Shown: positions 9,282-29,982 of the stretch, in pieces | Layout of the letters: every line of letters begins with the position of its first letter | Numbering within the stretch: position 1 is the stretch's first letter | Source: Patescibacteria group bacterium | GTDB taxonomy: Bacteria > Patescibacteriota > JAHJAL01 | Direction of reading: 5' to 3' | Length of the DNA stretch: 51,295 bases | NCBI GenBank assembly: GCA_049322675.1 | Contig: JBMORM010000020.1 | Location: 1 to 51,295 of the forward strand | Translations under genes and position numbers: made by a program | Notes under the pieces: model-generated | Database searches by the model: none | The model's input: only the letters and a program-made list of their open reading frames with translations | Told to the model about the DNA's origin: nothing

Positions 9282-10754
9282 ATGAACTCGAAAGAAAAAA
9301 TTGGGTACAAAGATAAATTTCCGGAAGGAGAGTTTCCTATTGATGACTCGAGAAAACGAGAACTAGCAAATGATATTGGGCAGGCGATTGAGGATAGAAA
9401 GAAATATTTTCGTGGAGTATTTCTGAGTGAACATGAAAAGAATACTGGTGAAAATTTACAGGTATGGAAAAGTTTTACTTCTTTTGGGGCTTTATTGACG
9501 ACAAAGGATAATTTAAGAAAACTTAAAGAAAAATATCCCAAATCCGTGGCATTTTTTTCCGAAGATAACAAAGTAATCTCAAAAGAGCATCAGAATATAG
9601 TCTGTTTGCGTGGTCGGGATTATTATTTCTTTTACAAAGAGTTGAAGGATAATATTAACAAAGCTTCATATGAAAAATATCAGAATTTGATTGGTGATTT
9701 TCAAGATATAAACAGAATATTGGATGAGGAATATGCTGATGTTGACACGAGGAAAATGCTTTTTCAAGAGAAGGTGTTATTTCTGGCCTTGTTGGATTAT
9801 CGTAAAAATATCTTATTGAATGTATATAATTCGGCTGTACTTTTGAAATCAAATAATTTTGAGGTATTGGCCGGAGAAACCAAAGAGAATACAAAAGGTC
9901 CTCTAGGTTTTAATAAGAGTAAAAAAATATGGGATGAAAAAACGTCTGGTTTGTTGGACGGTATTGATTTGAATAATATTGAAGTTTTTTCTAACCAAAT
10001 ACAGATGGCGGTGGATGATTATTACAAGATATTATTGGGAGTAGAAGGTAAGGTTTCAATTATTGGAAGTGAGCAGGTTAATAAGGTTTCGGAAAAGATT
10101 GTGAGAATATTGTCTATTTTGGAGACGGATATTGAACCTGTAAATAGAAAGTATGTAAAAAATATTTTAAGAAAAATATTTCGATCGGAAAGGGCGAGTG
10201 ACAATCCTTTATTGAATTTACTTCAAGCCTATTTGCAAAAAACAAAGGATCAAAAAGATGGTATAGAATATGATTATCTGGTTTCAATTTTGTATGGGGG
10301 TTTGGAGTTGGCTTATGTTTATAAGACTGTGGGAAAATTTTTAGGAGATAAAAAAAGTGACAATGCCAAGATAATTCCTATGATATTATCTCAGTACAAT
10401 GTAAAGAATTTTTCTGAGGCCGGTTTGTTGCATCAGTATATGCCTTTAAATAAAACCGAAAATTTTGAATCTAAAAATGTGTTGTTGATTGACGACAATA
10501 TAGTGACCGGTAAGACATTTGATGCAACTATTAAGATGTTTTTGAATGTTGGGGCAAAAATAAGAGGGAGTGTCACAGAGATTGATATGTACAAGATTGC
10601 TGATAATTATTTACCGATGTCATTATTGAATTTGATTACTCCTTCAGTAGCGCAGGTATTACCGATTAATTTGAAAAATCGGGAACATAATCCAAAGTCG
10701 GCATCAATCAAATATTCGCAGATGCTTTATAGACTTTTGAAAATGGATAAATAA
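9282..10754 (+). CDS. hypothetical 490-aa protein with a C-terminal phosphoribosyltransferase-type domain
   Basis: PRPP-loop-like motif NVLLIDDNIVTGKTFDAT near the C-terminus. The ~380-aa N-terminal region is Lys/Asn-rich with no motif I recognise. Confidence 0.6.
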   Translation: MNSKEKIGYKDKFPEGEFPIDDSRKRELANDIGQAIEDRKKYFRGVFLSEHEKNTGENLQVWKSFTSFGALLTTKDNLRKLKEKYPKSVAFFSEDNKVISKEHQNIVCLRGRDYYFFYKELKDNINKASYEKYQNLIGDFQDINRILDEEYADVDTRKMLFQEKVLFLALLDYRKNILLNVYNSAVLLKSNNFEVLAGETKENTKGPLGFNKSKKIWDEKTSGLLDGIDLNNIEVFSNQIQMAVDDYYKILLGVEGKVSIIGSEQVNKVSEKIVRILSILETDIEPVNRKYVKNILRKIFRSERASDNPLLNLLQAYLQKTKDQKDGIEYDYLVSILYGGLELAYVYKTVGKFLGDKKSDNAKIIPMILSQYNVKNFSEAGLLHQYMPLNKTENFESKNVLLIDDNIVTGKTFDATIKMFLNVGAKIRGSVTEIDMYKIADNYLPMSLLNLITPSVAQVLPINLKNREHNPKSASIKYSQMLYRLLKMDK

Positions 10755-10770
10755 TTTAGAGATGATTTAC

Positions 10771-10806
10771 AAAAAAAACAATCCGTCAATTCACGGATTG
10801 TTTTTT
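10771..10806. terminator. bidirectional intrinsic terminator
   Basis: A8-CAATCCGT-caattc-ACGGATTG-T6, between convergent genes. Confidence 0.6.
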
Positions 10807-14745: not shown

Positions 14746-14756
14746 GAGATTTTGAT

Positions 14757-14852
14757 TACAAAATCAATTTCCAATTTCCAATTCTCAATTTCCAATAAAT
14801 TTCCAATGTTTGGAAATTGGAAATTGAGCTTTTTTTGGAAATTGGAAATTTT
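14757..14852. repeat. palindromic TTTCCAAT-run intergenic element
   Basis: The left arm is CAATTTCCAATTTCCAATTCTCAATTTCCAATAAATTTCCAATG. The right arm is its near inverted complement, TTTGGAAATTGGAAATTGAG...TTGGAAATTGGAAATTTT. It contains the 25-mer CTCAATTTCCAATAAATTTCCAATG (14784..14808), which is identical to 50827..50851. Confidence 0.85.
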
Positions 14853-14921
14853 ACGCATAGTTTTTTTGAGAGAGCAAGTATTGAAACTTGAATGTAGAGA
14901 TTACAATAAATAGTAATAAAA

Positions 14922-15746
14922 TTGAAACGTATGTTTTCCAGAATTAAAAAATTTTGGTGGTTGGGGTTGGTGATTTTTTTGGTGGGGTTGACGGGTTATT
15001 GTGTTTTTGAGGCTTTTTGGATAAAAGTGGAAAATATTACTTATCGAAAAGATGTGCCGGCGGCATTTTCAGGATATAAAATCGTGTATTTGTCTGATAT
15101 ACATTATGGTCCGTTTTTTTCTGATGAAAGATTGGCCGAGATGGTGGAGCGAGTAAATGGGTTGCGTCCGGATTTGATATTGTTGGGAGGTGATTATATT
15201 TTTGATAAAACCGATCAGATTGAGCCGGTTTTTCAAGGTTTGTCGCAGTTGAAAGCCAAAGATGGCGTGTTTGCCGTATTGGGGAATCATGATCACTGGG
15301 AAGATCCGGATGTTTCTTGGAAATGTATGCGAGAAGCGGGAATTGTGGCGTTGGACAACAAGGCGACGTGGATTGTCAGGGGAGGGGAAAAAATCAGGTT
15401 GGGAGGTGTGGGGGACTGGTGGAATGATAAAGTAGATTTTGAGCCAACGATAGCCGGTACTACAAAAGGTGATTTGGTTATTTTACTTTCGCATAATCCG
15501 GATGTGGCGGAATTGGAGGATAGCGGTTTGGTGGATTTGATTTTGTCCGGGCATACGCACGCCGGTCAGTTGACTTTGTTTGGTCAGTGGGGGGTGATAC
15601 CTTCATTTTATGGACAAAAATATCGGCAGTCTTGGGCAAAAGCCCAAGAGACAGATGTTTATGTTTCGCGAGGAGTGGGAAATACTTTTTTGCCATTGCG
15701 ATTTTGGGCAAGGCCGGAAATTACGGTTCTTACTTTAGAAAATTAA
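14922..15746 (+). CDS. calcineurin-like metallophosphoesterase, membrane-anchored
   Basis: Motifs LSDIHYG, GGDY, GNHDH, SHNP and GHTHAGQ, with an N-terminal TM. TTG at 14922; alternative ATG at 14931. Confidence 0.85.
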   Translation: MKRMFSRIKKFWWLGLVIFLVGLTGYCVFEAFWIKVENITYRKDVPAAFSGYKIVYLSDIHYGPFFSDERLAEMVERVNGLRPDLILLGGDYIFDKTDQIEPVFQGLSQLKAKDGVFAVLGNHDHWEDPDVSWKCMREAGIVALDNKATWIVRGGEKIRLGGVGDWWNDKVDFEPTIAGTTKGDLVILLSHNPDVAELEDSGLVDLILSGHTHAGQLTLFGQWGVIPSFYGQKYRQSWAKAQETDVYVSRGVGNTFLPLRFWARPEITVLTLEN

Positions 15747-17725: not shown

Positions 17726-17832
17726 GACAAAAGAAGGCAAGACAAAATATTTTTAAAATTTAAACTAGCGGAAGGGATATGGATAGCTTAACAGTAAATT
17801 TTTAAAAATATTTTGTCTTGCCTTCTTTTGTC
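17726..17832. repeat. 33-bp perfect inverted repeat with a 41-nt loop
   Basis: GACAAAAGAAGGCAAGACAAAATATTTTTAAAA (17726..17758) has its exact reverse complement at 17800..17832. Confidence 0.9.
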
Positions 17833-17842
17833 TGTTATTGGA

Positions 17843-17946
17843 AAAAAGTGAAAAACCTCCGGTTTGGTTGCCGGAGGTTTTTCTTAAGAAAAAATTAATA
17901 TTTGGGGTGTATGATGGGGGCGTTGAGGTTGTTTTGGTGGTAAAAT
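17843..17946 (+). repeat. 104-bp direct repeat, copy 1 (contains a terminator hairpin at 17851..17882)
   Basis: AAAAAGTGAAAAACCTCCGGTTTGGTTGCCGGAGGTTTTTCTTAAG...GTTTTGGTGGTAAAAT matches 19132..19235 with 2 mismatches. Confidence 0.9.
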
Positions 17947-18022
17947 TGAAATTTTGTTGTAATTTTTAATATTGAAAATAAAAAATGTATTAGGGCAAAA
18001 AATAAGGCTTTAGACCAGATAA

Positions 18023-18136
18023 GAAGCATTTAATATGCTAAGTATATGGTCTAGAGCCATACTATTTATTGATGCCAGCGAAGTAGGTTATATGGAAGAT
18101 CGGACATATTTCAAAAATGTATGGTTTGAACTATAG
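18023..18136 (+). pseudogene. possible remnant of an N6-adenine DNA methyltransferase gene (C-terminal fragment)
   Basis: The short open frame ...LSIWSRAILFIDASEVGYMEDRTYFKNVWFEL* resembles the conserved (L)FIDA(R/S)..G.M.DRT block found after the catalytic domain of type I/IIG gamma-class methylases. There is no start codon context and the upstream part is missing. Confidence 0.3.
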
Positions 18137-18192
18137 AAATTACTTAGCTGATTTGTTAAGATAAAGGTGATTAATTTTTTAAATAGTGAATT

Positions 18193-19044
18193 ATGATGAA
18201 AAGAAAAATAAAAGTTAAAGGCAAGGAAATTTTGTTGTTAAGTAAGGAAAAAGAAGATTATATTTCGCTGACTGATATTGCCAGATATAAGAATGCGGAG
18301 ACAACAGGACTAGTGATTTCTCATTGGTTGAGTACTCGGTATACTATTGAGTTTTTGGGTATTTGGGAACGAATTAATAATCCAAATTTTAATGTTACGG
18401 AATTCAGTAACATTAAAAATAATGCCGGTTCAAATGGTTTTGTTTTATCGAATAAACAATGGATAGAAAAAACCGGGGCAATTGGTATTATTTCCAAATC
18501 TGGCAGATATACAGGCGGGACTTATGCGCACAAGGATATTGCATTTGAATTTGCTTCTTGGATTAGTCCGGAGTTTAAGCTGTATTTGATCAAAGATTAT
18601 CAGCGTCTCAAAGAGCAAGAGATTGAAAGAGAAAAACTGGGTTGGGATCTAAAGAGAAATTTAGCCAAGATAAATTATAGAATTCATACTGACGCAATCA
18701 AGGAATATATTATTCCGAAAAAATTGAGTGGTAATGATAAGTTTGTTTATGCCAATGAGGCGGATTTGTTGAATAAAGCATTGTTTGGACAAACTGCTTT
18801 GGAATGGAAAAAAACTAATCCTGATAAAGAAGGGAATATCAGAGATTATGCAGATGTCGCCCAACTGGTGGTGTTGGTCAATTTGGAAAATTTGAACGCG
18901 GAATTTATCAGGCAGGGTTTGGTGCCGGAGGTGAGATTGGAGAAATTAAATGAAATTGCGATTATGCAAATTGAAGCGTTGGTGGGTAATAGGAGTGTGA
19001 GGAGGTTGGAAGATTTGGACAACAAAAAAGGGCCATCGTCCTAA
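18193..19044 (+). CDS. KilA-N domain-containing protein
   Basis: 283 aa. The N-terminus IKVKGKEILLLSKEKEDYISLTDIARYKN...ISHWLSTRYTIEFLGIWE matches the KilA-N DNA-binding domain pattern common in phage, plasmid and defense-island contexts. Confidence 0.8.
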   Translation: MMKRKIKVKGKEILLLSKEKEDYISLTDIARYKNAETTGLVISHWLSTRYTIEFLGIWERINNPNFNVTEFSNIKNNAGSNGFVLSNKQWIEKTGAIGIISKSGRYTGGTYAHKDIAFEFASWISPEFKLYLIKDYQRLKEQEIEREKLGWDLKRNLAKINYRIHTDAIKEYIIPKKLSGNDKFVYANEADLLNKALFGQTALEWKKTNPDKEGNIRDYADVAQLVVLVNLENLNAEFIRQGLVPEVRLEKLNEIAIMQIEALVGNRSVRRLEDLDNKKGPSS

Positions 19045-19131
19045 CGGTCAACGCTCTTCTTTTTGATTATAGAAATGTTTATATGGTTTTAGAATATTTT
19101 GAAGATAATTGTAATGTGTTTTATTTGGGAT

Positions 19132-19235
19132 AAAAAGTAAAAAACCTCCGGTTTGGTTGCTGGAGGTTTTTCTTAAGAAAAAATTAATATTTGGGGTGTA
19201 TGATGGGGGCGTTGAGGTTGTTTTGGTGGTAAAAT
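19132..19235 (+). repeat. 104-bp direct repeat, copy 2 (terminator hairpin at 19139..19171)
   Basis: Same sequence as 17843..17946 apart from G>A and C>T. The C>T change converts one stem pair to a G-U wobble. Confidence 0.9.
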
Positions 19236-19266
19236 GAGCGTGTATATTATTTTTTTATAAATCAAT

Positions 19267-20196
19267 ATGGCTTTATACCAATTGGGTAAACAAAAAATAT
19301 GTTTGATCGAAGAAAAGAAAATTGATCTGGAAAAAAATATTCAAGGAGTGATTGAAAATAATTTGGATGAAATATTTGGGCTGCAATTTGTTTGTAGTGA
19401 GTTGCCGCTGCATAATTTTCGGATTGATACATTGGCTTTTGATGAAGAAACAAAATCGTTTGTGATTATTGAATACAAAAGAGACAAGAGTATTAGTATT
19501 GTTGATCAAGGCTTTAGTTATCTGGCTTTGATGATAAACAACAAGGCCGATTTTGTGCTGGAATACAACGAAAAACTGGGAAAAAATTTGAATAAGACGG
19601 CGATTGACTGGTCGCAGTCGAGGGTGGTATTTATTGCCAATAGTTTTACTACTTACCAACAAAATGCGATCAATTTTAAAGATTTGCCGATAGAATTGTA
19701 TGAAGTAAAAATTTTTGAAGACGATATTTTGTCAATCAACCAATTGAAACCAATTTCGTCGACCGAGTCGATCAAGACGATTTCAAAATCCAAGAATGTG
19801 GAGACGGTGAGCAAGGAGATAAAAATTTATACGGTTGAAGATCATTTCAAACCGGGGTGGGAAAAATCGCGGGAGTTGTTTGATGATTTGCGAGAGAAGA
19901 TTTTGGGATTGGATGATCGGATTGAGGAAAAATTTAATAAACCATATATCGGGTATCAGGTTGGTCGCAAAAATATTGTGGCGGTGATCGCGCAAAAACA
20001 GAAGTTGATTTTTGAATTGAATCGGACTGATATTCGAAACAAGGAAGTCAAAGATCCGGAGAAAAAAGTATATTATCGAAAAGATAGTAAGGAATATTTT
20101 AATCAACACATTAGTCGTTTTGATATCAATAATTTTAATGATGTTGATTATGCAGTGTTTTTGGCAAAGCAAGTTTGGGAGAGGTTTTTTAAATAA
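19267..20196 (+). CDS. PD-(D/E)xK nuclease-like (NucS/DUF91-type) N-terminal domain plus DUF5655-like C-terminal domain protein
   Basis: The N-terminus has the pattern LEKNIQGVIENNLDEIFGLQFVCSELPLHNFRIDTLAFDEETKSFVIIEYKRDK (D...ExK). The C-terminal half (YTVEDHF...PYIGYQV...) resembles DUF5655. It ends 8 nt before the methylase start. Confidence 0.55.
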   Translation: MALYQLGKQKICLIEEKKIDLEKNIQGVIENNLDEIFGLQFVCSELPLHNFRIDTLAFDEETKSFVIIEYKRDKSISIVDQGFSYLALMINNKADFVLEYNEKLGKNLNKTAIDWSQSRVVFIANSFTTYQQNAINFKDLPIELYEVKIFEDDILSINQLKPISSTESIKTISKSKNVETVSKEIKIYTVEDHFKPGWEKSRELFDDLREKILGLDDRIEEKFNKPYIGYQVGRKNIVAVIAQKQKLIFELNRTDIRNKEVKDPEKKVYYRKDSKEYFNQHISRFDINNFNDVDYAVFLAKQVWERFFK

Positions 20197-20204
20197 TAAA
20201 TAAT

Positions 20205-22235
20205 ATGAATATTTCACAATTAATAAAATCTGATGGTAAATACGATTTATCAATTTTTTCTGGGGAGAGTATTGATCGTATTGAAAAAAATATTTTTGAA
20301 AAAAATGAGAAATATTTTGTTAAATGTCTAAAAAGGAATAAAGACATTCAAGTAAAACCGGAAGAGATTGTAAGGCAGTTGATGATTGATAAATTGTTAA
20401 GTGAATATGGCTACACAGTTGATTTGATTGATGTGGAATATGTTGTTTCTTTTGGTCGGGAGAAAAAATTTGCCGATATTGTGATTTTGAATAAAGCTGA
20501 TAAAACGAGTATTTATTGTGTGTTGGAAATCAAAAAGCACAAGGCGCAGGATGGCAAAGATCAATTAAAAAGTTATACCAATGCGACTGGTGCGCCGTTG
20601 GCTGTTTGGACCAATGGAGTGGAAATAAATTATTATGAAAGACTAGATCCAAACTATTTTGAACCGCTTTCTGATTTGCCAAAAGCAAATGAAACAATTG
20701 ATGATGTAAAAAATGAAAAATTTACATATTTGGAATTGATGCAAAAAGACAGACTCTTGGAAGAGAGAAAGTCTTTGAAATCTTTGATCCAAGAAATGGA
20801 AGATGAGGTATTGTCCAATGCTGGTGTGGATGTTTTCGAAGAAGTATTTAAACTAATATTTACGAAATTGTATGACGAAATGGAAAGTGCTGATGATCGA
20901 GTAAATATTGAAACTCAATATAAAATAGTTAAAAAACAAAATCCGGAATTAGCTGATAAGCAAATTCTAGAAAAAGTTGACAGTGATGGTTTTAGAAAAT
21001 TGGAATTTAGAAGTCGAGGAGATGCACATCATACCAAAGAAGTAATAAATAATTTGTACCAAAAAGCCAAAGACAAATGGCAAGGTATTTTTGAAAAAGG
21101 TGAGCCACTACGAATTACTGACGAAAACCACTTACAAATTTGTGTGGGTTTTTTGCAGAATGTGAAATTATTTAATTCTAATTTGCAAGTAATAGATGAA
21201 GCTTTTGAATACTTGGTCAACAAATCTGCCAAGGGAGAAAAAGGGCAATATTTCACACCTAGAAATGTGATTGATATGTGTGTTTATATGATGAATCCGC
21301 AAGCTAACGAATATATGATTGATACGGCTTGTGGCAGTTGTGGATTTACGGTCCATACACTTTTTAATGTTTGGCAAAAATTGGTCAATCAAGGCAAAGC
21401 ACATTTTGCCAATTTTTCCAATCAAAAACTGACGAGTGAACAAAAAAATTATGTTGATAAAGTTTTCGGAATTGATTTTGATGAAAAATCTGTTCGCGTG
21501 GCTCGTACTCTAAATATGATTGCTGGAGATGGCAGGACAAATGTATTGCATTTGAATACTTTGGATTACACGAGATGGGAAGAAAAATTAAAAGATAATT
21601 CGTGGGCAAAAACGTATCTTGAAGGATATTATCGACTGTTAGATTTGGCAAAAGATCGTCAAAATCCCAAAGATTTTAATTTTGATATCGTAATGGCAAA
21701 CCCGCCTTTTGCGGGGGATATAAAAGATAGCAGATTGATTTCCAATTATGAAGTTGCCTTTAATGGCAAAAAGAAAGCAAACAAAGTTTCTCGTGACGTT
21801 TTGTTTATTGAGAGAAATTTGGATTTTCTCAAACCGGGTGGTCGGATGGCGATTGTGTTACCGCAGGGGAGATTTAATAATACTAGTGATGAAAAGATTA
21901 GAAATTTTGTTATGGAGAGGGCGAGATTGATCGCAGTGGTGGGGCTAGATGGAAATACATTTAAACCCCATACAGGCACAAAAACTTCTGTCTTGTTTGT
22001 ACAAAAATGGGATGATGAGATCAATCCAAAAGTTGATGATTATGAGATTTTTATGGCAGTGAGTGAGTGTAGCGGAAAAGATAATTCTGGGCTTGAGATT
22101 TATGAGATGGATGAAAATGGGGAGAGAAAACTGGATGAACATAATCATTTGATTCAAAAGCATGATCTGAAAGATATTGCGGAGGCTTTTGAGAAGTGGG
22201 CAAGAGGGCAAAAGCTTGGTTTTTGGAAATTTTAG
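20205..22235 (+). CDS. hsdM: N6-adenine DNA methyltransferase (type I HsdM-like, gamma class) with a fused N-terminal HsdR_N-type PD-(D/E)xK domain
   Basis: Motif I is IDTACGSCGF and motif IV is ANPPFAG, with YFTPRNVIDMCVYMM upstream. The N-terminal ~190 aa carry EEIVRQLMIDKLL...FADIVIL...YCVLEIKK (D-Xn-E-X-K). Confidence 0.88.
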   Translation: MNISQLIKSDGKYDLSIFSGESIDRIEKNIFEKNEKYFVKCLKRNKDIQVKPEEIVRQLMIDKLLSEYGYTVDLIDVEYVVSFGREKKFADIVILNKADKTSIYCVLEIKKHKAQDGKDQLKSYTNATGAPLAVWTNGVEINYYERLDPNYFEPLSDLPKANETIDDVKNEKFTYLELMQKDRLLEERKSLKSLIQEMEDEVLSNAGVDVFEEVFKLIFTKLYDEMESADDRVNIETQYKIVKKQNPELADKQILEKVDSDGFRKLEFRSRGDAHHTKEVINNLYQKAKDKWQGIFEKGEPLRITDENHLQICVGFLQNVKLFNSNLQVIDEAFEYLVNKSAKGEKGQYFTPRNVIDMCVYMMNPQANEYMIDTACGSCGFTVHTLFNVWQKLVNQGKAHFANFSNQKLTSEQKNYVDKVFGIDFDEKSVRVARTLNMIAGDGRTNVLHLNTLDYTRWEEKLKDNSWAKTYLEGYYRLLDLAKDRQNPKDFNFDIVMANPPFAGDIKDSRLISNYEVAFNGKKKANKVSRDVLFIERNLDFLKPGGRMAIVLPQGRFNNTSDEKIRNFVMERARLIAVVGLDGNTFKPHTGTKTSVLFVQKWDDEINPKVDDYEIFMAVSECSGKDNSGLEIYEMDENGERKLDEHNHLIQKHDLKDIAEAFEKWARGQKLGFWKF

Positions 22236-22252
22236 TTTTTACTTACATAAGA

Positions 22253-24064
22253 ATGAAATACACTAAATTTATTGTCAAAAAATTCAAAGGTATTGAAAGG
22301 TTGGAACTAGATCTGACAAAATATCCTGTTGGAAAAATTTTCCCATTGGTTGGATTAAATGAGAGCGGAAAAACAACTATTTTAGAATCTCTAAATTTCT
22401 TTCAAGAAGATTTGTCTGATGGGAAAAAACATGAAATTCTACATAAAAAGGACAGTGGGAGCTTTACAGGAAATATCGAGGTTGAAGCTGAGTTATTGTT
22501 GGACGATGGTGATAATAAAATCATTAAAGATTATCTAAATTCTAAATCCTTTAAAATTGAAAATGATATTGAAAGAATTACGATTACAAAAAAATATATT
22601 TTTAAAAATGCTTCATTTGAAAAGTCAGAATCGACTTGGTTTTGGAATCCAAGCTTAAAGGTAAAAACTGGTACGCAAAGATCTTACAAGGGTTTGTATC
22701 CTGAGAATGAAGAGGTATGGAAAGAGCTAACGAATGAAGTTAAGAAAATTATTCCTAAAATATTATATTTTCCCGATTTTCTTTTCGATTTTCCAACAAA
22801 AATATATTTAGAAAATATCGAAACCATAACAAGTGAAAAGGAAAAAGAAGTACAAAAAGAGTATAAACAAATAATTGACGACATATTACATACCATTAAT
22901 TCTAATTATTCAATCAACGATTTTTTAACAAAACTAAAAGCTTTAACTGATACCGCAAAACAATCTGCTGCCTCTCAAATAAAACAAGAAATTTCTTCAA
23001 TTTTAAATCAAAAAATCGTAGCTCCTTGGCAAGAGATATTTCAGGGACCAAATAAAAACATCATTATTGAAACTGGTAATGATCAAACAGGGTATTTTAT
23101 CCAGTTGAAAGTGAATGAAGGCACAAGTCATTTTTTGATAAATGAAAGGAGTCTTGGTTTTAGATGGTTTTTTGGTTTTATTCTTTTTACAGAATTTAGA
23201 AAAGCGAGAGCTGATGAAAGTGGTGAATATCTTTTTTTATTTGATGAACCAGCAAGCAATTTGCATGAAAGTTCTCAGCAGAAATTGTTATCTCTTTTTG
23301 AAAATTTGATTGATAAATCAAAAATAATATATTCAACACATAGCCCATATCTTATAAATCCAAAATATATTTTAAATTGTTTTATAGTTAAAGATGCAGG
23401 AAGGGAAAATTCAAATGATTATGATTTTAGACAAAATATTAATGCAATACCATATAGGCAGTTTGTAGCAAATTATCCGGATGAAGAAACACATTTTAAG
23501 CCAATTCTTGATGTTTTGCAATTTTGTGCTACCGATTTTGATTTGGCAGACAAGATTGTGTTTTTTGAAGGGAAATTTGATTACTATACTTTTAAATGGA
23601 TATTAAAAACTTTTTTTAATGATGCTTGTTTTGATTTTAAGTTTTATCCAGGGGCAAGCGTTGATAAATATGAAAACATTTTTAGAGAATATTTAGCTCA
23701 TAATAAAAAATTTGTTGCTATTTTTGATGCAGATGGGAATGAGACCACAAAAGGTAAAGGAGCAAAAAATAGGTACATAAACAATATTTCTCAAGAGCTA
23801 GAAAAACAAGTATTTACTCTCAATGATGTAGATCAAAATTTTGATACTTTTACTACAGAAAAGTTATTTACAGAAACTGAAAGATTACAAATTCAACAAA
23901 AATCATTTCCAAGTTATACTATTTTTAATAAAAATCATTTCAATTCAGCGATTCTAGAGCTTTTCATTAGTGAAGAATCTTTCACTTTATCAGACGAAAC
24001 AAAAGAAAATTTTAAAAAAATCCTTGAATTTATTAAAAATAAATTTACCCAATTAGATATATAA
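22253..24064 (+). CDS. OLD-family-like protein: ABC-type ATPase with a C-terminal Toprim/DUF4435-like domain
   Basis: ATG at 22253 (the ORF-track start at 22196 overlaps hsdM). Walker A is GLNESGKTT, Walker B is YLFLFDEPASNLH and the H-loop is YSTHSPYL. The C-terminus has KIVFFEGKFDYYTF (E-G-x-x-D) and VAIFDADG (DxD), typical of Toprim. Confidence 0.7.
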   Translation: MKYTKFIVKKFKGIERLELDLTKYPVGKIFPLVGLNESGKTTILESLNFFQEDLSDGKKHEILHKKDSGSFTGNIEVEAELLLDDGDNKIIKDYLNSKSFKIENDIERITITKKYIFKNASFEKSESTWFWNPSLKVKTGTQRSYKGLYPENEEVWKELTNEVKKIIPKILYFPDFLFDFPTKIYLENIETITSEKEKEVQKEYKQIIDDILHTINSNYSINDFLTKLKALTDTAKQSAASQIKQEISSILNQKIVAPWQEIFQGPNKNIIIETGNDQTGYFIQLKVNEGTSHFLINERSLGFRWFFGFILFTEFRKARADESGEYLFLFDEPASNLHESSQQKLLSLFENLIDKSKIIYSTHSPYLINPKYILNCFIVKDAGRENSNDYDFRQNINAIPYRQFVANYPDEETHFKPILDVLQFCATDFDLADKIVFFEGKFDYYTFKWILKTFFNDACFDFKFYPGASVDKYENIFREYLAHNKKFVAIFDADGNETTKGKGAKNRYINNISQELEKQVFTLNDVDQNFDTFTTEKLFTETERLQIQQKSFPSYTIFNKNHFNSAILELFISEESFTLSDETKENFKKILEFIKNKFTQLDI

Positions 24065-24066
24065 CT

Positions 24067-25425
24067 ATGCCCCAAATAAGCTACATAAAATATTCGGATA
24101 TTTTAAAAGAAAGTTCTGAACTTAGAATTGAAGCAGAATTTTATATTAATTTAAACAAATACAAGATTAAAAAGTTTATTTTTGGGAAAGATATTATTGA
24201 TTTTGTTCAATATGGAACTTCAAAAGACTTGAATGAAGAGCAAAAAGGTTTTCCAATTCTTAGATTAAATGAATTTGATGGATATTATATAGGGAGTCCT
24301 TCAAAATATTCCAATTTAATAACAAAAGAAATTTTCGAATCTTTGAAACTTAAAAAAGGAGATGTTTTGATTTGTAGAACTAATGGAAATCCACATTATG
24401 TTGGCAAATCTGCAATTTGTATGGAAAATTTAGAGGTGGGATATGCTTCATATTTATTTAGAATAAGACCAAATAAAGAAATAAATTCAGAATCTTTAAT
24501 GATCTATTTAAACTCTGATTATGGAAGAAACGAGATAGAAAAACATTCAATGGTTAGCAACCAAGCAAATTTTAGTCCTGCAAAATTTAGACAAATTAAA
24601 ATTCCTCTTCTTCCTCAATCTTTCCAACTACAAATCGAAGAAATCGTAAAATTCGCTTACCGAAAACAAACCCAATCCAAACAACTCTACCGCGAAGCCG
24701 AAAAATTGCTTTTGCAGGAACTTGGACTTTTGGATTATCGAGTCAAACATTCGCTTTGGTTTGCTACAACAAAAAAAGAAATTGATGAAGCCAAAAGATA
24801 TGATAGTGAATATTTTCAGCCGAAATATGCGGAGATTATAAGGAAAATTGAGGAATATGAGGGCGGATATTTCAAATTATCAGATAAAAATTATGCAAAA
24901 ATATCTCGTGGTTCATTGATTCCTGATAGTTTTTATAATTCAGAAAAAGGCAATCCGTATATCAGAGGCGCTGATTTTTCAAGTGGCATTTTAGGAAACG
25001 ATAAACTTGTATTTATTGATGATTCTTTTCAAAAGACAAGGGAGACGATGGTAAGAGAAAATGATATTGTTTTTTCATTAATAGGCAGTGTCGGAGCAAC
25101 TGCGATAGTTTCAAAAAATTTTGATAATTCATTTATTTCAAATAATACTGGAAAAATTCGTGTAATAAATTTTGATCCAGTTGTTTTGCAAATAATATTT
25201 CAGTCTGTTGTTGGAAAACTTCAATTTGAAAAAGAAAAAACTCAAACAGCGCAACCGAAAATTTCAAGTGATCAAGTCGGAAATTTCAAAATCCCTCTCA
25301 TTAAACAATCTATCCAACTACAAATCAATGAAAAAATCCAAGAGAGCCATAGATTGAGAAAAGAAAGTAAAAAATTATTGGAGGAGGCGAAGAGAAAAGT
25401 GGAGGAGGAGATTGAGAGGGGATAA
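24067..25425 (+). CDS. hsdS: type I restriction-modification specificity subunit (two TRDs)
   Basis: 452 aa with two target-recognition halves. Each half ends in the conserved helical spacer: IPLLPQSFQLQIEEIVKFAYRKQTQSKQLYREAEKLLLQELGL, and IPLIKQSIQLQINEKIQESHRLRKESKKLLEEAKRKVEEEIE. It starts 2 nt after the upstream stop. Confidence 0.88.
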   Translation: MPQISYIKYSDILKESSELRIEAEFYINLNKYKIKKFIFGKDIIDFVQYGTSKDLNEEQKGFPILRLNEFDGYYIGSPSKYSNLITKEIFESLKLKKGDVLICRTNGNPHYVGKSAICMENLEVGYASYLFRIRPNKEINSESLMIYLNSDYGRNEIEKHSMVSNQANFSPAKFRQIKIPLLPQSFQLQIEEIVKFAYRKQTQSKQLYREAEKLLLQELGLLDYRVKHSLWFATTKKEIDEAKRYDSEYFQPKYAEIIRKIEEYEGGYFKLSDKNYAKISRGSLIPDSFYNSEKGNPYIRGADFSSGILGNDKLVFIDDSFQKTRETMVRENDIVFSLIGSVGATAIVSKNFDNSFISNNTGKIRVINFDPVVLQIIFQSVVGKLQFEKEKTQTAQPKISSDQVGNFKIPLIKQSIQLQINEKIQESHRLRKESKKLLEEAKRKVEEEIERG

Positions 25426-25510
25426 AAGGTAGTCAAATCTTTGTTTGACAGTAATTATTTTTTATTTTATTATTAGTCATAGTAGTTATATATAGTTATA
25501 TATATTTTTC

Positions 25511-26173
25511 ATGAGAAATAAACTTTCTAAAAACCAGATGATTTTTTTCAAATTTTTAAAAAACTATATTTCTCGAAATAAATATTCTCCTACATATAGT
25601 GAAATGCTCGATTTGTTATCGGCAGAGGGACTGAGGATAAAAAGTAATAATAGTTTGGCTCAATATTTGAAGGTGCTGGAAAAAAAAGGATTAATTAAAA
25701 ACACTTCTTTGCCAAGGGGTATAAAACTTATAAAGGAAGAAGAAAAACAATGTTGTGCCATTCCTTTTTATGGTAAAGCAAATTGTGGTGAAGCATTAAT
25801 TTTTGCTGAAGATACGGTTAATGATTATATAAATATTTCTAGAAAGTATATTTCCGGTGATAAAAATGATTACTTTTTTGTTGAAGCTGATGGAAATTCG
25901 ATGAATAAGGATGGAATTAATAATGGTGATATGGTTTTGGTTAGAAAGAAAAATAATTATTTAAAGAATAAAAATGTTGTTGTGATAATCAATGGATTGG
26001 CAACAATTAAAAAATATATTGAAAAAGATGGTATAACATTTTTGGTTCCATCTTCAACAAATTCAAAACATAAACCAATAATACTGCATCCTGAAGATGA
26101 TATTAATTTTTGCGGTGAAGTAGAAAAGGTTTTTAGTTTTTCAGATATGGATAGCAAAGGAGGTCGAAGCTAA
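25511..26173 (+). CDS. lexA: LexA-like repressor (winged-helix plus S24 peptidase)
   Basis: The N-terminus LSKNQMIFFKFLKNYISRNKYSPTYSEMLDLL...LKVLEKKGLIK is a LexA DNA-binding domain pattern. The S24 catalytic Ser is in ADGNSM and the Lys is in ATIKKY. The linker is IPFYGKANCGEA. Confidence 0.8.
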   Translation: MRNKLSKNQMIFFKFLKNYISRNKYSPTYSEMLDLLSAEGLRIKSNNSLAQYLKVLEKKGLIKNTSLPRGIKLIKEEEKQCCAIPFYGKANCGEALIFAEDTVNDYINISRKYISGDKNDYFFVEADGNSMNKDGINNGDMVLVRKKNNYLKNKNVVVIINGLATIKKYIEKDGITFLVPSSTNSKHKPIILHPEDDINFCGEVEKVFSFSDMDSKGGRS

Positions 26174-26214
26174 CCTAAGTCTGAATTTATTCGTAAGACA
26201 TCCGAAAGGATTTA

Positions 26215-26514
26215 ATGTTTGGAAAAGATATGGAATATGCATGGTTAAAATTTCCCTCACAAGTATTGTATGCTCCAGAGACAAAAGGGGTATATTTATT
26301 GTCTGAATGGGCGTCTGAAAATAGTATTGTGTATATTGGGAAAGCAGATAGTTTGCATGAGCGACTTAGCCAACATCCAGATCCAAACAATCGTTGTTTG
26401 AATAGAAAAAGTATCAAATACTTTTCCTATGAAGAGTGTAGTAATCCTGACATTCGAGAAAAAGAATTGATACGAAAATATAATCCCGTATGCAATGATT
26501 TGCTAAAGGATTAA
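26215..26514 (+). CDS. small GIY-YIG nuclease-domain protein
   Basis: 99 aa with GVYLL (GIY), VYIGKA (YIG), LHERL (Arg), REKELI (Glu) and YNPVCN (Asn). Confidence 0.7.
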   Translation: MFGKDMEYAWLKFPSQVLYAPETKGVYLLSEWASENSIVYIGKADSLHERLSQHPDPNNRCLNRKSIKYFSYEECSNPDIREKELIRKYNPVCNDLLKD

Positions 26515-26520
26515 GAAAAC

Positions 26521-26555
26521 AGGCCTTTGAAAAAAATCAAAGGCCTCTCTTTTGT
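26521..26555 (+). terminator. intrinsic terminator
   Basis: AGGCCTTTGA-aaaaaa-TCAAAGGCCT 10-bp stem followed by CTCTTTTG. Confidence 0.6.
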
Positions 26556-26591
26556 ATTTATATTGTATATTTTTATTTAGTTATTTGAAAT

Positions 26592-26792
26592 GTGGATAAA
26601 AAAATTATGGAAAATTTAAGTTATTTTCTTTCTGTTGTTGCATCTGTCTTAGGTATTGCAGGTTTTGTCTGGTCTTGGATGAATCATGTCAAAATCAAAA
26701 AAATAAATAATTTTGGTAATTATTTTAGTAATATTCATTCTTCGAGAAATGGAAGAGACGGTATTCATATTGGAGATGATAGAAATGAATAA
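26592..26792 (+). CDS. small single-TM protein, hypothetical
   Basis: 66 aa with the TM segment LSYFLSVVASVLGIAGFVWSW. Its stop overlaps the next ATG (ATGAATAA). Confidence 0.4.
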   Translation: MDKKIMENLSYFLSVVASVLGIAGFVWSWMNHVKIKKINNFGNYFSNIHSSRNGRDGIHIGDDRNE

Positions 26793-27342
26793 AAAGAGTA
26801 GCAAAAAAGTTCAGTATCAAATTGTTTCCGCAAATGATTGGTTAAACAAGATAGGCTGTAAAATTGTCGATGGAAAAATTAGACTTCCGATGAAACATTT
26901 GATTTTTCCCCTTATGAAAGCAAGTGAGGAAATGGAAAAGTATAAAAATTTCAAGCGTTTAAATGAACAAATGAAGTGTATTGATGTGATAGCTTTGAAT
27001 GTGAGACAAGCGGATAATGCATATTTTTTTGCGTGGTCGCAAAGCATATTGGTTAGCAATAAAAAGGAAACGATACCAGAAATATTTCCATGTTATAACT
27101 GTTTTCAAAAGACGATATCGTCAGACAATTTGAGAAAACATTTTTCTTCCAAATTACAGAAACTTAGAGATAAAGTTAGTAGTGAAATAATACATGCTGC
27201 AGAAGCTGGGGTTATTGTTTCGTCAAAACATTTTGGTCTAGTTGAGGAATATTATAATGAATTTATAAGTTTAAATATGTTTTATTTTTCAGGAATAAAA
27301 GATCTTAATGTTTGTTTTTGTAAGGAACATGAAAGGAATTGA
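26785..27342 (+). CDS. hypothetical protein (185 aa), Cys/His-containing
   Basis: ATG at 26785 (MNKKSSKKVQYQ...), translationally coupled to the upstream small ORF. CYNC...CFCKEH is a possible metal site. No recognised family. Confidence 0.55.
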   Translation: MNKKSSKKVQYQIVSANDWLNKIGCKIVDGKIRLPMKHLIFPLMKASEEMEKYKNFKRLNEQMKCIDVIALNVRQADNAYFFAWSQSILVSNKKETIPEIFPCYNCFQKTISSDNLRKHFSSKLQKLRDKVSSEIIHAAEAGVIVSSKHFGLVEEYYNEFISLNMFYFSGIKDLNVCFCKEHERN

Positions 27343-27357
27343 TGTTGTTGTTACTAA

Positions 27358-27389
27358 TAAAACACCAGTAAAAATTTACTGGTGTTTTT
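27358..27389 (+). terminator. intrinsic terminator
   Basis: AACACCAGTAA / TTACTGGTGTT stem followed by a T-run. Confidence 0.6.
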
Positions 27390-27496
27390 AAGATTTTGGA
27401 GGATGTCAAAATTATAGCAAGCTGTAATCTAGCTGGATGTTTTGGTTGATATCGTTTATTATCTCGTTTAACTGATTTTCGCGATATATTGAGATA

Positions 27497-27572
27497 GGTT
27501 GGGTTTCGCCGGAGGTATTTTGTGTTAAGGAAAAATTAATATTGGATCGGTATAATGATGGTGGGTGGGTTA
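27497..27572 (+). repeat. degenerate third copy of the 104-bp island repeat
   Basis: GGTTGGGTTTCGCCGGAGGTATTTTGTGTTAAGGAAAAATTAATATTGGATCGGTATAATGATGGTGGGTGGGTT aligns by eye (roughly 70%) with GGTTTGGTTGCCGGAGGTTTTTCTTAAGAAAAAATTAATATTTGGGGTGTATGATGGGGGCGTT. The left half of the hairpin is missing. Confidence 0.45.
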
Positions 27573-27666
27573 TTATTTCGATAATACAGAATTGAAAAGA
27601 GAATCAAATATTAGGAAATTCAAAATAGTTCAAAATATCGCAATAGAAAATAATAAGTATAAATTT

Positions 27667-28221
27667 ATGAAGAAAGAAATTATAAAGTCGTTAACAAATA
27701 ATTTTGAAAGTTATTCCCACAAGACTGATGGGGGAATATAATTTTGGTTTGCTAGAGATTTGCAGCATTTATTGGGATATTCAAAATGGGATAATTTTTT
27801 GAATGTAATTTTGAAAGCTAAAACAGCTTGTGATATAAGTGGCCATGATATATGCGATCATTTTGCCGACGTCGGGAAAAAGGTCAAATTGGGCTCTGAG
27901 AGCGAAAGGGAGATTGAAGACATTATGTTGACTCGCTATGCGTGTTATTTAATAGCGCAAAATGGCGATCCAAAGAAACAAGAAATTGCTTTTGCTCAAA
28001 ATTATTTTGCCGTGCAAACTAGAAAATATGAGTTAATTGAAAAAAGAATTCTGGATTCAGAAAGATTATCAGCTAGACAAAAATTGGCAATTACCGAATC
28101 TGAATTATCAGGGCTGATATTCGAGAAAACTAAAAATGACAAAAATTTTGGATTAATTCGAAGCAAGGGCGATAAGGCGACGATTGAAAACGGAAGACAA
28201 AAAAACATTAAAAAATGTTAG
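27667..28221 (+). pseudogene. dinD: DNA-damage-inducible protein D (DinD) homolog, interrupted by an in-frame TAA and 3'-truncated
   Basis: ATG at 27667 opens MKKEIIKSLTNNFESYSHKTDGGI. TAA at 27739..27741 follows, and the same frame continues FWFARDLQHLLGYSKWDNFLNVILKAKTACDISGHDICDHF...LTRYACYLIAQNGDPKK, colinear with E. coli DinD. The conserved C-terminal half is absent after ...LIRSKGDKA. Confidence 0.75.
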
Positions 28222-28263
28222 AAAGTTAAAGAAGAAATGAAATTATAAAATTTAATAAAAATT

Positions 28264-28587
28264 ATGAACGAAGCAAATATAACTAAAAATAGTGATGATA
28301 GTTTGGAAATTGTTTCGGCGACTGTTAATAATGAGGGAGAGGAATATTGGTTGGCGGGGGAGGTGAAAAATATTTCTGGTGCGAGATTGGATTATGTGGG
28401 GGTGGTGGTGGCAGTGAAAGATTGTGATGGTCAGGTAATTAATTGTGATCAAATATATTTGTTGGGTAATTCATATTTGCAGTCGGGAGAGACCGGTTAT
28501 TTTAAATATCATTTTTCGGCGGCGATGTTTGGCCGAATGTCAGGACTGAAAGTGGTGGTTAGTCCTTTTTATCAAAAGCTAGAATAA
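28264..28587 (+). CDS. hypothetical small protein (107 aa)
   Basis: ATG ORF with a beta-rich look and no recognised motifs. Composition returns toward backbone-like values. Confidence 0.5.
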   Translation: MNEANITKNSDDSLEIVSATVNNEGEEYWLAGEVKNISGARLDYVGVVVAVKDCDGQVINCDQIYLLGNSYLQSGETGYFKYHFSAAMFGRMSGLKVVVSPFYQKLE

Positions 28588-29790: not shown

Positions 29791-29820
29791 TTTATTAATA
29801 GTTAAAAGTTATGTGGAAGC

Positions 29821-29982
29821 GTGAGAAAGTGTAAAAGTGAGAAAGTGTAAAAGTGAGAAAGTGTAAAAGTGAGAAAGTGTAAAAGTGAGAAAGTGTAAAA
29901 GTGAGAAAGTGTAAAAGTGAGAAAGTGAAAACGTATAAAGGTTTTGACTTTCGTGCGTTTTCACTTTTACACGTTTGCACGC
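29821..29982. repeat. 16-bp tandem array with an inverted terminal copy
   Basis: GTGAGAAAGTGTAAAA occurs as 6 perfect copies, followed by the variant GTGAGAAAGTGAAAAC (29821..29932). After a 24-nt loop comes the inverted copy GTTTTCACTTTTACACGTTTGCACGC (29957..29982), giving a stem-loop. Confidence 0.9.

What the first reader, a model, noticed from the sequence alone, without database searches (positions are those of the whole stretch)
17843..27572. Three copies of a ~100-bp terminator-containing repeat partition an AT-rich accessory island into cassettes
Copies at 17843..17946 and 19132..19235 differ by only 2 nt and bracket a 1.2-kb segment holding a methylase remnant and a KilA-N gene. A third, degraded copy (27497..27572, lacking the left hairpin half) sits after the RM/LexA/GIY-YIG block and just before dinD.

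Proteins between the copies are conspicuously Lys/Asn/Ile-rich, and the DNA is visibly more AT-rich than the flanks. I did not compute the composition.

This pattern is what serial insertion or cassette exchange at one recombination site would leave. No integrase or transposase is present, so the mechanism is open: homologous exchange through conserved boundaries, a trans-acting recombinase, or an unrecognised element type.
Basis: seen in the sequence. Interest (0 to 1): 0.66.

Follow-up and report, generated by a model that had tools for sequence, protein, structure and literature searches.

The report
Terminator–promoter repeat bounding swappable defence cassettes
A ~120-base unit, made of a transcription-stop hairpin plus a probable start signal, is repeated at the edges of a gene island in an uncultured Patescibacteria genome; close relatives carry different anti-phage systems between the same edges, so the repeat marks where defence genes are swapped.

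Summary
Two 118-121-nt copies (17829-17946 and 19115-19235) are 98% identical over 104 nt. A third, partial copy lies at 27494-27587. A profile search finds exactly these three in the 51 kb.

Each copy is a perfect terminator hairpin, then an invariant 19-nt AT-rich core (TTAAGRAAAAATTAATATT), then a -10-like hexamer 8 nt on. Each copy sits upstream of the first gene of a block.

The enclosed DNA is foreign in composition: GC 0.31-0.33 against 0.41, and GC3 0.27 against 0.49. It consists largely of defence genes.

Relatives with the same flanks carry different content between the same boundaries:
- a complete type I restriction-modification (R-M) operon (hsdM-KilA-N...hsdR);
- a type III CRISPR-Cas locus (Cas10, array);
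- a DUF3800-like candidate.

Homology to the window's right flank stops at the core. Contigs with 99% identical right flanks differ in content there.

No recombinase gene is in the window, no integron attC features are present, and the repeat is absent from phage, plasmid and other genome collections.

The best reading is a PeSL-like terminator-promoter boundary module, through which cassettes are gained, lost and replaced by homologous and homology-anchored illegitimate recombination. Promoter activity and the recombination mechanism are inferred, not shown.

The parts
17726..17832 (.). 107-nt perfect palindrome (36-nt arms, 35-nt spacer) between the last conserved left-flank gene and repeat copy 1. 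It belongs to the conserved left flank.
   Evidence: I3, 97% complementary; fold -48 kcal/mol, z = -8.9. Conserved in L001/L003; right arm shortened in L006.
17829..17946 (+). Repeat copy R1. Parts: AT-rich lead-in; hairpin 17850-17883; invariant core 17884-17902; -10-like TATGAT 17910-17915; G-rich leader, which contains a mini-ORF at 17911-17943.
17947..18192 (+). Relic of a type I methylase gene (hsdM). The 5' UTR and first codons, one internal fragment and the hsdM-KilA-N spacer remain; about 1.5 kb has been deleted relative to L006.
   Evidence: BLASTN against L006; translation; intact 531-aa HsdM in L006.
18193..19044 (+). KilA-N domain protein (PADLOC candidate PDC-S22). In relatives it is the second gene of the hsdM-KilA-N...hsdS...hsdR operon.
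19013..19114 (+). Conserved 3' boundary: the last codons of KilA-N (..DNKKGPSS*) plus a spacer. The same stretch is found fused to an unrelated gene in L001.
   Evidence: (L001 4872-5000).
19115..19235 (+). Repeat copy R2. Parts: hairpin 19139-19172, with a C-to-T change that still gives a G-U pair on the + strand RNA; core 19173-19191; TATGAT 19199-19204.
19267..20196 (+). DUF5655 protein (PADLOC candidate PDC-S18), the first gene after R2.
20205..22235 (+). Type I-like N6-adenine methylase with an N-terminal HSDR_N_2 domain.
   Evidence: (MTase_I, E = 3.5e-260).
22196..24064 (+). AAA_15 / OLD-AriA-like ATPase lying between the methylase and specificity genes.
24067..25425 (+). Type I specificity subunit (HsdS).
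25511..26173 (+). LexA-like repressor (LexA DNA-binding domain plus S24 peptidase). A canonical TTGACA-17-TATTAT promoter-like site lies at 25445-25473.
26215..26514 (+). Small GIY-YIG nuclease-domain protein, followed by a terminator-like hairpin at 26521-26546.
26713..27342 (+). 209-aa ORF with no family match, followed by a hairpin at 27359-27388.
27494..27587 (+). Repeat copy R3 (partial). Parts: 3' arm of the hairpin only (27510-27518); core 27525-27543; perfect TATAAT 27551-27556; diverged leader with a mini-ORF at 27555-27584. Homology with relatives' right flanks begins at 27520-27525.
27667..28221 (+). dinD / Bro-N gene, a pseudogene here. It has an in-frame TAA at 27739-27741 and a 272-bp frameshifting deletion at 28178/28179. 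It is intact (281-315 aa) in L011 and L012.

Best explanation
The repeat (R) is a composite intergenic boundary module of a defence-gene hotspot in a Patescibacteria chromosome.

Anatomy and presumed function. The left half is an intrinsic-terminator hairpin that ends transcription from whatever lies upstream. The right half is an invariant 19-nt AT-rich core, then a -10-like hexamer 8 nt on, then a G-rich leader. This half most likely starts transcription of the next block. Each block is therefore an insulated expression unit.

Role in recombination. The same 50-120 nt recur at the left edge of the island, between blocks, and in front of dinD (as the promoter half only). They therefore provide patches of homology. 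Incoming DNA, or another copy in the same genome, can recombine through them. The possible routes are:
- RecA-type crossover or gene conversion between copies;
- Campbell-type insertion or excision of a circle, which creates or removes a flanking direct repeat;
- homology-anchored illegitimate joining at the far end.

The result is gain, loss and replacement of defence systems at one address without an element-encoded integrase.

Shown here: the anatomy; the restriction to this locus; the variable defence content between identical boundaries; homology breakpoints at the core; sequence homogenisation of the two copies within one genome.

Inferred: promoter activity, and the recombination pathway.
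For: 1. Anatomy.
- The hairpin has a 12-14-bp stem with flanking A5 and T5 runs (z = -4.1 and -3.0).
- Hairpin changes keep the pairing: CCTCCGG/CCGGAGG becomes CCCCCGG/CCGGGG in L001 R2, and the window's R2 has a G-U pair.
- The 19-nt core is identical in 7 of 8 boundary copies from three lineages whose flanks are only 83-91% identical. The eighth copy has one change.
- A TATGAT or TATAAT hexamer follows the core at a fixed 8 nt. A TATTAT hexamer sits at the same position after the near-identical core (17 of 19 nt) of the lineage D operon.
- Every copy lies roughly 30-110 nt upstream of the first start codon of a block.

2. Restriction to this locus.
- nhmmer finds only three copies in 51 kb.
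- Collection scans find only the related contig.

3. Variable defence content between the same boundaries.
- Window: relic hsdM plus KilA-N, then DUF5655, methylase, OLD-like ATPase, HsdS, LexA and GIY-YIG.
- L001: a PDC-M04A/DUF3800-like gene, then Cas10.
- L006 and L012: the full type I R-M operon.
- L011: a CRISPR array.
- L011 and L012/L013 right flanks are 98.9-99.5% identical yet differ in content.

4. Breakpoints.
- Right-flank homology to the window stops at 27520-27525, the 5' edge of the core.
- On the other side of the core, homology ends at a different point for each block. That fits homologous or illegitimate exchange and does not fit one fixed crossover point.

5. Signs of recombination.
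- The window's R1 and R2 share two states absent from all other copies, although R2 is positionally orthologous to L001's R2. This points to gene conversion.
- The tract from 27520 to about 28450 is 96-100% identical to lineage B, against 88-92% next door. The gene in it is dead, so selection does not explain this.
- In L001 the unrelated gene is fused to the last 30 nt of KilA-N. One end of that replacement was anchored in R and the other was illegitimate.

6. Foreign composition: GC3 0.27 against 0.49.

7. No recombinase gene in the window and no attC R' box.

8. A documented precedent for this design exists: the PeSLs of T4-type phages (PMC2839356).
Against: - Promoter function is not shown. 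The sigma-70 consensus scan did not call a promoter in R. TTAAGA lies 20 nt from the hexamer and there is no TTGACA-like -35.
- ATG codons overlap the hexamer and open a mini-ORF. The segment could therefore be read differently.
- Only three species-level lineages plus one within-species variant were found. No complete island of lineages B2 or C was seen, and no empty site.
- Two of the three right junctions break within about 4 nt of the 5' edge of the core. A site-specific enzyme would also produce that.
- The same type I R-M operon occurs at another locus (after tRNA-Pro, L021) with a near-identical core but no hairpin. The core may simply be that operon's own promoter, carried in with it.
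- L006 has no second copy after KilA-N, so the repeat does not separate every block.
Confidence: 0.6

Rival explanations
1. The 19-nt invariant core is the recognition site of a recombinase encoded elsewhere in the genome (tyrosine, serine, Xer-like, or a new type). Cassettes would be inserted and excised site-specifically, as in an integron whose integrase lies outside the window.
For: - The core is perfectly conserved over 19 nt in copies whose surroundings diverge.
- Right-flank homology ends within about 4 nt of its 5' edge in L011 and L012.
- Direct repeats flank a 1.2-kb segment, as after integration of a circle.
- The same core sits in front of the same R-M operon at a different locus.
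Against: - No recombinase gene was found in the 51 kb, nor in the parts of relatives' islands that were seen.
- The homology end on the 3' side of the core differs for every cassette: +17, +34, +53 and +62 nt.
- No attC-like R' box and no imperfect-palindrome architecture.
- Homogenisation of the whole 104 nt in the window looks like gene conversion.
- The KilA-N tail fusion in L001 is an illegitimate joint.
Confidence: 0.13
2. R is only a regulatory sequence (terminator plus promoter or operator) that was copied passively along with genes. The island varies because of ordinary exchange through the conserved flanking genes or illegitimate insertion, and the repeat has no part in recombination.
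For: - Defence islands commonly vary between conserved flanks without special sites (established knowledge).
- The recent high-identity tract runs into dinD and the next gene, so the flanks do serve as homology arms.
- L021 shows the core travelling as part of an operon.
- L006 lacks an internal copy.
Against: - Homology between lineages ends at the core itself, not inside the flanking genes.
- Two copies in one genome are homogenised.
- Unrelated first genes (hsdM, DUF5655, a DUF3800-like gene, cas10, dinD) all sit behind the same module. Passive co-transfer does not explain that.
Confidence: 0.22
3. The tandem layout is an assembly artefact. The real state would be one chromosomal copy plus a separate 1.29-kb circle, or strain mixing.
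For: Logan unitigs break at the copies. The 1275-bp contig L002 alone is compatible with a 1289-bp circle.
Against: - The identical stretch shared by R1 and R2 is only about 72 nt. Single short reads or large-k assembly can span that.
- The window contig reads through both copies, which differ at two positions.
- An independent MAG from another assembly has the same two-copy layout, with diverged copies.
Confidence: 0.03

Closest known systems
PeSLs (promoter-early stem-loops) of T4-type phages (Arbiol et al. 2010, PMC2839356; Comeau et al. 2014, PMC4122927)
   Same: - A conserved intergenic module of about 100 bp that combines a terminator stem-loop, an AT-rich stretch and a promoter.
- Several copies flank non-essential variable genes.
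- Differences between close relatives are bounded by the module.
- Crossover points are scattered within the module.
- No dedicated recombinase is known.
- Direct repeats predict excision as mini-circles.
   Different: - The host is a cellular Patescibacteria chromosome, not a phage.
- There are only three copies, at one locus.
- Cassettes are multi-gene defence systems of up to 8 kb, not single ORFans.
- There is no sigma-70 consensus -35.
- Promoter activity, terminator activity and circles are untested here.
Defence islands and hotspots between conserved core genes (for example the P2/P4 hotspots and chromosomal defence islands; from my own knowledge)
   Same: Conserved flanks; different anti-phage systems at the same address in close relatives; atypical base composition.
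   Different: Those hotspots are usually defined by the flanking genes or by an integrase and att site. Here a repeated terminator-promoter unit lies at the breakpoints and also inside the island.
Integron cassette arrays, including sedentary chromosomal integrons that store defence systems (bioRxiv 10.1101/2024.07.02.601686; PMC12614218)
   Same: A serial array of cassettes separated by a repeated structured site; defence genes as cargo; circular-intermediate logic.
   Different: - No IntI gene in the window.
- The hairpin is a perfect terminator, not an attC with extrahelical bases.
- No GTTRRRY box.
- Cassettes appear to carry their own promoter instead of relying on Pc.
Neisseria minimal mobile elements (cited in PMC1538595, PMC3082526)
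   Same: Alternative gene cassettes at one site between conserved sequences, exchanged by homologous recombination after DNA uptake, with no mobility genes.
   Different: The homology arms there are the flanking genes. No repeated regulatory module inside the site is described for them, as far as I know.
Phage morons, and 'promoter propagation' (identical promoters upstream of unrelated genes; from my own knowledge)
   Same: Genes that travel with their own promoter and terminator; the same promoter in front of non-homologous genes.
   Different: [quoted passage not shown] Here the breakpoints fall in them.

Membership tests
PeSL-type mobile regulatory cassette | Conserved intergenic motif of about 100 bp containing a stable stem-loop that can terminate transcription. 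| tested here: met
   Hairpin 17850-17883 and 19139-19172. Fold z = -4.1 and -3.0. Terminator-like call. Pairing-preserving changes between copies. Termination itself was not assayed.
PeSL-type mobile regulatory cassette | Strong sigma-70-consensus promoter (-35 and -10) within the motif. | tested here: inconclusive
   A -10-like TATGAT, TATAAT or TATTAT lies at a fixed distance from the core in all copies. The consensus scan found no -35/-10 pair in R. The promoter rules of Patescibacteria are unknown to me.
PeSL-type mobile regulatory cassette | Copies flank variable genes, and insertions, deletions or replacements between close relatives are bounded by the motif. | tested here: met
PeSL-type mobile regulatory cassette | Recombination between neighbouring copies yields mini-circles. 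| not testable with these tools
   This needs raw reads or inverse PCR. L002 (1275 bp) is compatible with a circle but is not evidence for one.
PeSL-type mobile regulatory cassette | Resides in the hyperplastic regions of T4-type phage genomes. | tested here: not met
   The window carries tRNAs, iPGM, BacA and ABC-transporter genes, among others. Its closest relative is a Patescibacteria MAG. No phage or viral match.
Integron / CALIN | IntI tyrosine recombinase next to the array. | tested here: not met
   No integrase or recombinase family in any ORF of 100 aa or more in the 51 kb. A distant gene cannot be excluded.
Integron / CALIN | attC sites: imperfect palindromes with R''/L''-L'/R' boxes (GTTRRRY). 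| tested here: not met
   No GTTRRRY on either strand of five full copies. The stem is perfect and is followed by a T-run.
Defence island / hotspot | Same conserved flanks with different content in related genomes. | tested here: met
   Left flank 83-91% identical and right flank about 92% identical, with unrelated content between them.
Defence island / hotspot | The content is anti-phage defence genes. | tested here: met
   Type I R-M, OLD/AriA-like ATPase, PDC-S18, PDC-S22, PDC-M04A, Cas10 and a CRISPR array.
Dispersed intergenic repeat (REP/MITE-like terminator family) | Many copies scattered through the genome, irrespective of variable content. | tested here: not met
   Three copies, all at the island. 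The related MAG has two copies, both at this locus. The complete genome of the window organism was not available.
Integrase-borne genomic island at a tRNA | Integrase gene, and direct repeats derived from the 3' end of a tRNA. | tested here: not met
   No tRNA at the island edges and no integrase.

The most novel reading that the evidence does not exclude
Patescibacteria, which take up DNA but carry few classical mobile elements, may use an integrase-free cassette system. In this reading, defence operons are packaged between copies of a terminator-promoter module, loop out as small circles by recombination between copies, and re-enter any genome that carries the module. That would be a cellular counterpart of phage PeSL mini-circles and a functional analogue of integrons. 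The invariant 19-nt core could serve both as a promoter element and as a preferred pairing or protein-binding site.
Probability: 0.15. Interest if true: 0.7.

Novelty: new variant of a known kind. Interest (0 to 1): 0.5.

Why it matters
Defence-system turnover is usually ascribed to mobile elements or to exchange through flanking core genes. Here the breakpoints fall in a small repeated regulatory unit.

That unit would do two things at once. It would insulate and express whatever is inserted, and it would offer the homology needed to insert it. Until now this design has been documented only for PeSLs in T4-type phages.

If it operates in Patescibacteria, it gives a simple account of how these reduced genomes swap R-M and CRISPR systems within a species. 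It also gives a concrete sequence tag for finding such slots in other genomes.

The claim can be tested directly with existing read sets and metatranscriptomes.

Tried and rejected
- Rfam: no family matches the repeat or the palindrome.
- Integron attC: no R' box and a perfect stem.
- Xer/dif-like site: compared by eye with the dif consensus, from memory; no convincing match. Not tested formally.
- LexA/SOS operator in the core: a literature search did not retrieve the Patescibacteria LexA motif. Left open.
- Phage or plasmid origin of the repeat: no match.
- Wider occurrence: a strict pattern found only L001. A loose pattern gave 17 single hits in unrelated AT-rich taxa, about the number expected by chance. 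One of these is in a Peribacteria MAG, upstream of a start codon; I could not tell it from chance.
- Metagenome scans found nothing, either by pattern or by the flank protein.
- Empty site (left flank joined directly to dinD): not found in any retrieved contig.
- More distant relatives have a different neighbourhood and are uninformative (NicX at 57% identity, L019/L020; at 81%, L018).
- Exact-protein look-ups for the window's own flank and cassette proteins returned only one sample, SRR32167788.
- Mini-ORF in the leader (MMGALRLFWW*; MMVGGLLFR* in copy 3): the stop codons align, but the ATGs overlap the -10-like hexamer, L006 shifts frame and L021 lacks the ATG. It cannot be told apart from a by-product of G-rich sequence.

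Full report
**1. The observation**

A repeat search of the whole window finds a 104-nt direct repeat at 17843-17946 and 19132-19235 (98% identical), and a third member at 27484-27587 (61% ungapped). Alignment extends the unit leftwards to 17829-17946 and 19115-19235.

The 21-nt core pattern TTAAGRAAAAATTAATATTKG occurs in the three copies and nowhere else in the window, against 0.13 matches expected. A profile built from nine copies scores the three window copies at E = 6e-26, 1e-24 and 4e-18. The next hit has E = 0.5.

Independent assemblies agree with the layout. Logan contigs from SRR32167788 break exactly at the copies (L004, L002 and L005). An unrelated MAG shows the same two-copy layout.

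The DNA between the copies is compositionally foreign. GC is 0.33 and 0.31, against 0.41 in both flanks, and GC3 is 0.27 against 0.49. Lys and Asn are enriched; Ile is not.

**2. Anatomy of the unit (R)**

Reading 5' to 3', R contains:
- a short AT-rich lead-in;
- a perfect hairpin (GAAAAACCTCCGG-loop-CCGGAGGTTTTTC, 17850-17883) with A- and T-runs, which looks like an intrinsic terminator;
- the 19-nt core TTAAGAAAAAATTAATATT (17884-17902);
- eight bases, then TATGAT (17910-17915; TATAAT in copy 3);
- a G-rich leader that ends at 17946.

Changes between copies keep the hairpin paired. L001's second copy has a C/G substitution on both arms, and the window's second copy has a C-to-T change that gives a G-U pair on the + strand RNA only.

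Copy 3 keeps only the 3' arm of the hairpin, then the core and a diverged leader. Rfam has nothing for any of this.

**3. Genes**

Between R1 and R2:
- a relic of hsdM (17947-18192);
- a KilA-N gene (18193-19044).

After R2:
- a DUF5655 protein (PADLOC candidate PDC-S18);
- a type I-like methylase with an HSDR_N_2 domain;
- an AAA_15/OLD-AriA-like ATPase;
- HsdS;
- a LexA-like repressor;
- a small GIY-YIG protein;
- a 209-aa ORF with no family match.

After R3 lies dinD (Bro-N). It is dead here, with an in-frame TAA and a 272-bp frameshifting deletion, but intact in relatives.

No ORF of 100 aa or more anywhere in the 51 kb matches an integrase, transposase or recombinase family.

**4. Relatives**

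Four informative lineages were recovered. The window is lineage A.

- **Lineage C** (Patescibacteria MAG contig DAIRGB010000024.1; L001/L003). The left flank is 91% identical to the window. The order is palindrome, R, then a DUF3800-like/PDC-M04A gene that carries an in-frame stop and ends in the last 30 nt of KilA-N (..DNKKGPSS*). The same spacer and a second R follow, and then Cas10 (HD plus Csm1_B domains).

- **Lineage B, left side** (L006). The left flank is 83% identical. After R comes an intact hsdM, then KilA-N, then a membrane protein. There is no second R.

- **Lineage B, right side** (L012; the same sample series as L006). The order is ...hsdR, then the core, then an intact dinD.

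- **Lineage B2** (L011). The right flank is 98.9-99.5% identical to L012/L013. Here a CRISPR array abuts the core.

- **Lineage D** (L021-L023). The same type I R-M operon (90% nucleotide identity to B) lies at another locus, after tRNA-Pro. About 45 nt upstream of hsdM is TTAAGAAAAAATTAATAAGTTGGGTGTATTAT, with no R hairpin.

The window's 'methylase remnant plus KilA-N' is therefore the decayed head of the operon that is complete in B and D.

**5. Where homology ends**

All right-flank contigs lose homology to the window at 27520-27525, the 5' edge of the core in copy 3.

On the 3' side of the core, the conserved stretch ends at a different point in front of each first gene:
- 2 nt after the hexamer, before cas10;
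- after GGTTGTTTT, before the DUF3800-like gene;
- after GGTAAAAT, before DUF5655.

So the core is the common denominator, but there is no single crossover nucleotide.

**6. Traces of recombination**

- The window's R1 and R2 share two states found in no other copy: an extra A before the stem, and a G in the loop. Yet R2 sits at the same position, behind the same KilA-N tail and spacer, as in lineage C. The simplest account is gene conversion between the two copies.

- From the core of copy 3 to about 28450 the window is 96-100% identical to lineage B, while the adjoining flank is 88-92% identical. The gene in that tract is a pseudogene, so selection does not explain it.

- The KilA-N tail fused to an unrelated gene in lineage C is what a replacement leaves when it is anchored in R on one side and joined illegitimately on the other.

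**7. Distribution**

A strict and a looser pattern were scanned over one genome per species (596 Gb). They returned only the lineage C contig, with two copies at this locus. The other 17 hits were single hits in unrelated AT-rich taxa, about the number expected by chance.

Scans of JGI metagenome contigs, IMG/VR, GenBank phages and PLSDB plasmids found nothing.

A second variable slot in the window has no R. It spans 9124-10773, holds a PRTase-domain ORF next to tRNA-Ser, and is absent from lineage C.

R is therefore neither a genome-wide terminator family nor a general marker of variable DNA. It belongs to this hotspot.

**8. Interpretation**

R is best read as a terminator-promoter boundary module. 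It closes the upstream transcription unit and opens the next one. Because it recurs, it also supplies 50-120 nt of homology at which cassettes are inserted, deleted, replaced and homogenised.

Three things together favour homologous and homology-facilitated illegitimate recombination over a dedicated site-specific enzyme: the scattered breakpoints, the conversion of whole copies, and the absence of a recombinase gene. Uptake of foreign DNA is plausible, since competence genes are common in Patescibacteria (from my own knowledge; not tested here).

I put this reading at about 0.6. A recombinase acting in trans at the core gets 0.13. A purely regulatory repeat with no role in exchange gets 0.22. 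An assembly artefact gets 0.03.

Weak points:
- Promoter activity is inferred from position and a -10-like hexamer only.
- The sigma-70 scan does not call a promoter in R.
- The sample of lineages is small, and no empty site was found.
- The core also travels with the type I operon at another locus. It may have entered the hotspot as that operon's promoter.

**9. Comparison with known systems**

The closest documented design is the PeSL of T4-type phages. A PeSL is a conserved module of about 100 bp, made of a stem-loop terminator, an AT-rich stretch and a promoter. Copies flank variable ORFs, recombine at scattered points and release mini-circles (PMC2839356; PMC4122927).

R shares the architecture and the comparative signature. 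It differs in several ways:
- it is in a cellular chromosome, with three copies at one locus;
- it bounds multi-gene defence systems;
- it lacks a consensus -35.

It fails the integron tests: no IntI in the window and no attC features. In function it resembles integron defence 'biobanks' (bioRxiv 10.1101/2024.07.02.601686) and Neisseria minimal mobile elements (PMC1538595).

I file it as a defence hotspot with a PeSL-like boundary module, that is, a new variant of a known kind.

Noticed in passing
window 17726-17832: A perfect 107-nt palindrome (36-nt arms; fold z = -8.9) lies directly upstream of repeat copy 1. It is conserved in relatives, with the right arm shortened in L006 by a deletion between TTTTGTCT repeats. 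Several Logan contigs end in it. It could be a strong terminator, or a fragile site that helps make this locus a hotspot.
   Followed up: partly
window 27667-28221: dinD (Bro-N) is a pseudogene here: GAA-to-TAA at 27739-27741 and a 272-bp frameshifting deletion at 28178/28179. The gene is intact in L011 and L012.
   Followed up: yes
window 27520-28450: This tract is 96-100% identical to lineage B (L012), while the adjoining right flank is 88-92% identical. It looks like a recent inter-lineage recombination tract that ends at the core of copy 3.
   Followed up: partly
window 9124-10773: A 1.65-kb AT-rich insert (GC 0.33) with a 490-aa ORF carrying a phosphoribosyltransferase domain. It sits right after tRNA-Ser(TGA) and is absent from relative L003. 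This is a second variable slot with no copy of the repeat. There is no PADLOC hit.
   Followed up: partly
window 6727-6784, 14749-14850, 49220-49352, 50809-50940: A separate family of intergenic palindromic elements built from AATTTCC/AATTTTC heptamer runs. This is the genome's dispersed hairpin family and is unrelated to the repeat studied here. Relatives lose homology across the one at 14750-14929.
   Followed up: no
window 29797-29950: A tandem array of a 16-nt unit (GTGAGAAAGTGTAAAA, about 9 copies) upstream of the NicX-like gene. All relatives lose homology between 29803 and 30000.
   Followed up: no
window 1-51295: GC skew is positive in every 1-kb bin (0.09 to 0.51), including stretches where genes are on the minus strand. 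That is unusually strong and uniform.
   Followed up: no
window 17911-17943 and 27555-27584: A mini-ORF lies inside the repeat leader: MMGALRLFWW* in copies 1 and 2, and MMVGGLLFR* in copy 3. The stop codons fall in the same alignment column. The start codons overlap the -10-like hexamer. In L001's second copy the ORF overlaps the cas10 start; in L006 a 1-nt insertion puts it in frame with hsdM.
   Followed up: partly
L001 4196-4903: The DUF3800-like/PDC-M04A gene in the first slot of lineage C has an in-frame TAA after codon 45. So the first slot holds a decayed gene in both lineages A and C.
   Followed up: partly
L021 1-12806: The type I R-M operon with embedded KilA-N (hsdM, KilA-N, two small ORFs, hsdS, DUF3644, one ORF, hsdR) is 90% identical to that of lineage B but lies after tRNA-Pro in a different genomic context. 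No integrase lies between the tRNA and hsdM.
   Followed up: partly
L011 7025-7069: The ENA contig starts with Illumina adapter sequence next to the CRISPR array, so its end is an assembly artefact.
   Followed up: no
window 36503-45853: A 3116-aa ORF with many internal repeat families (D2-D9) and only weak BNR and MG2 domain hits.
   Followed up: no
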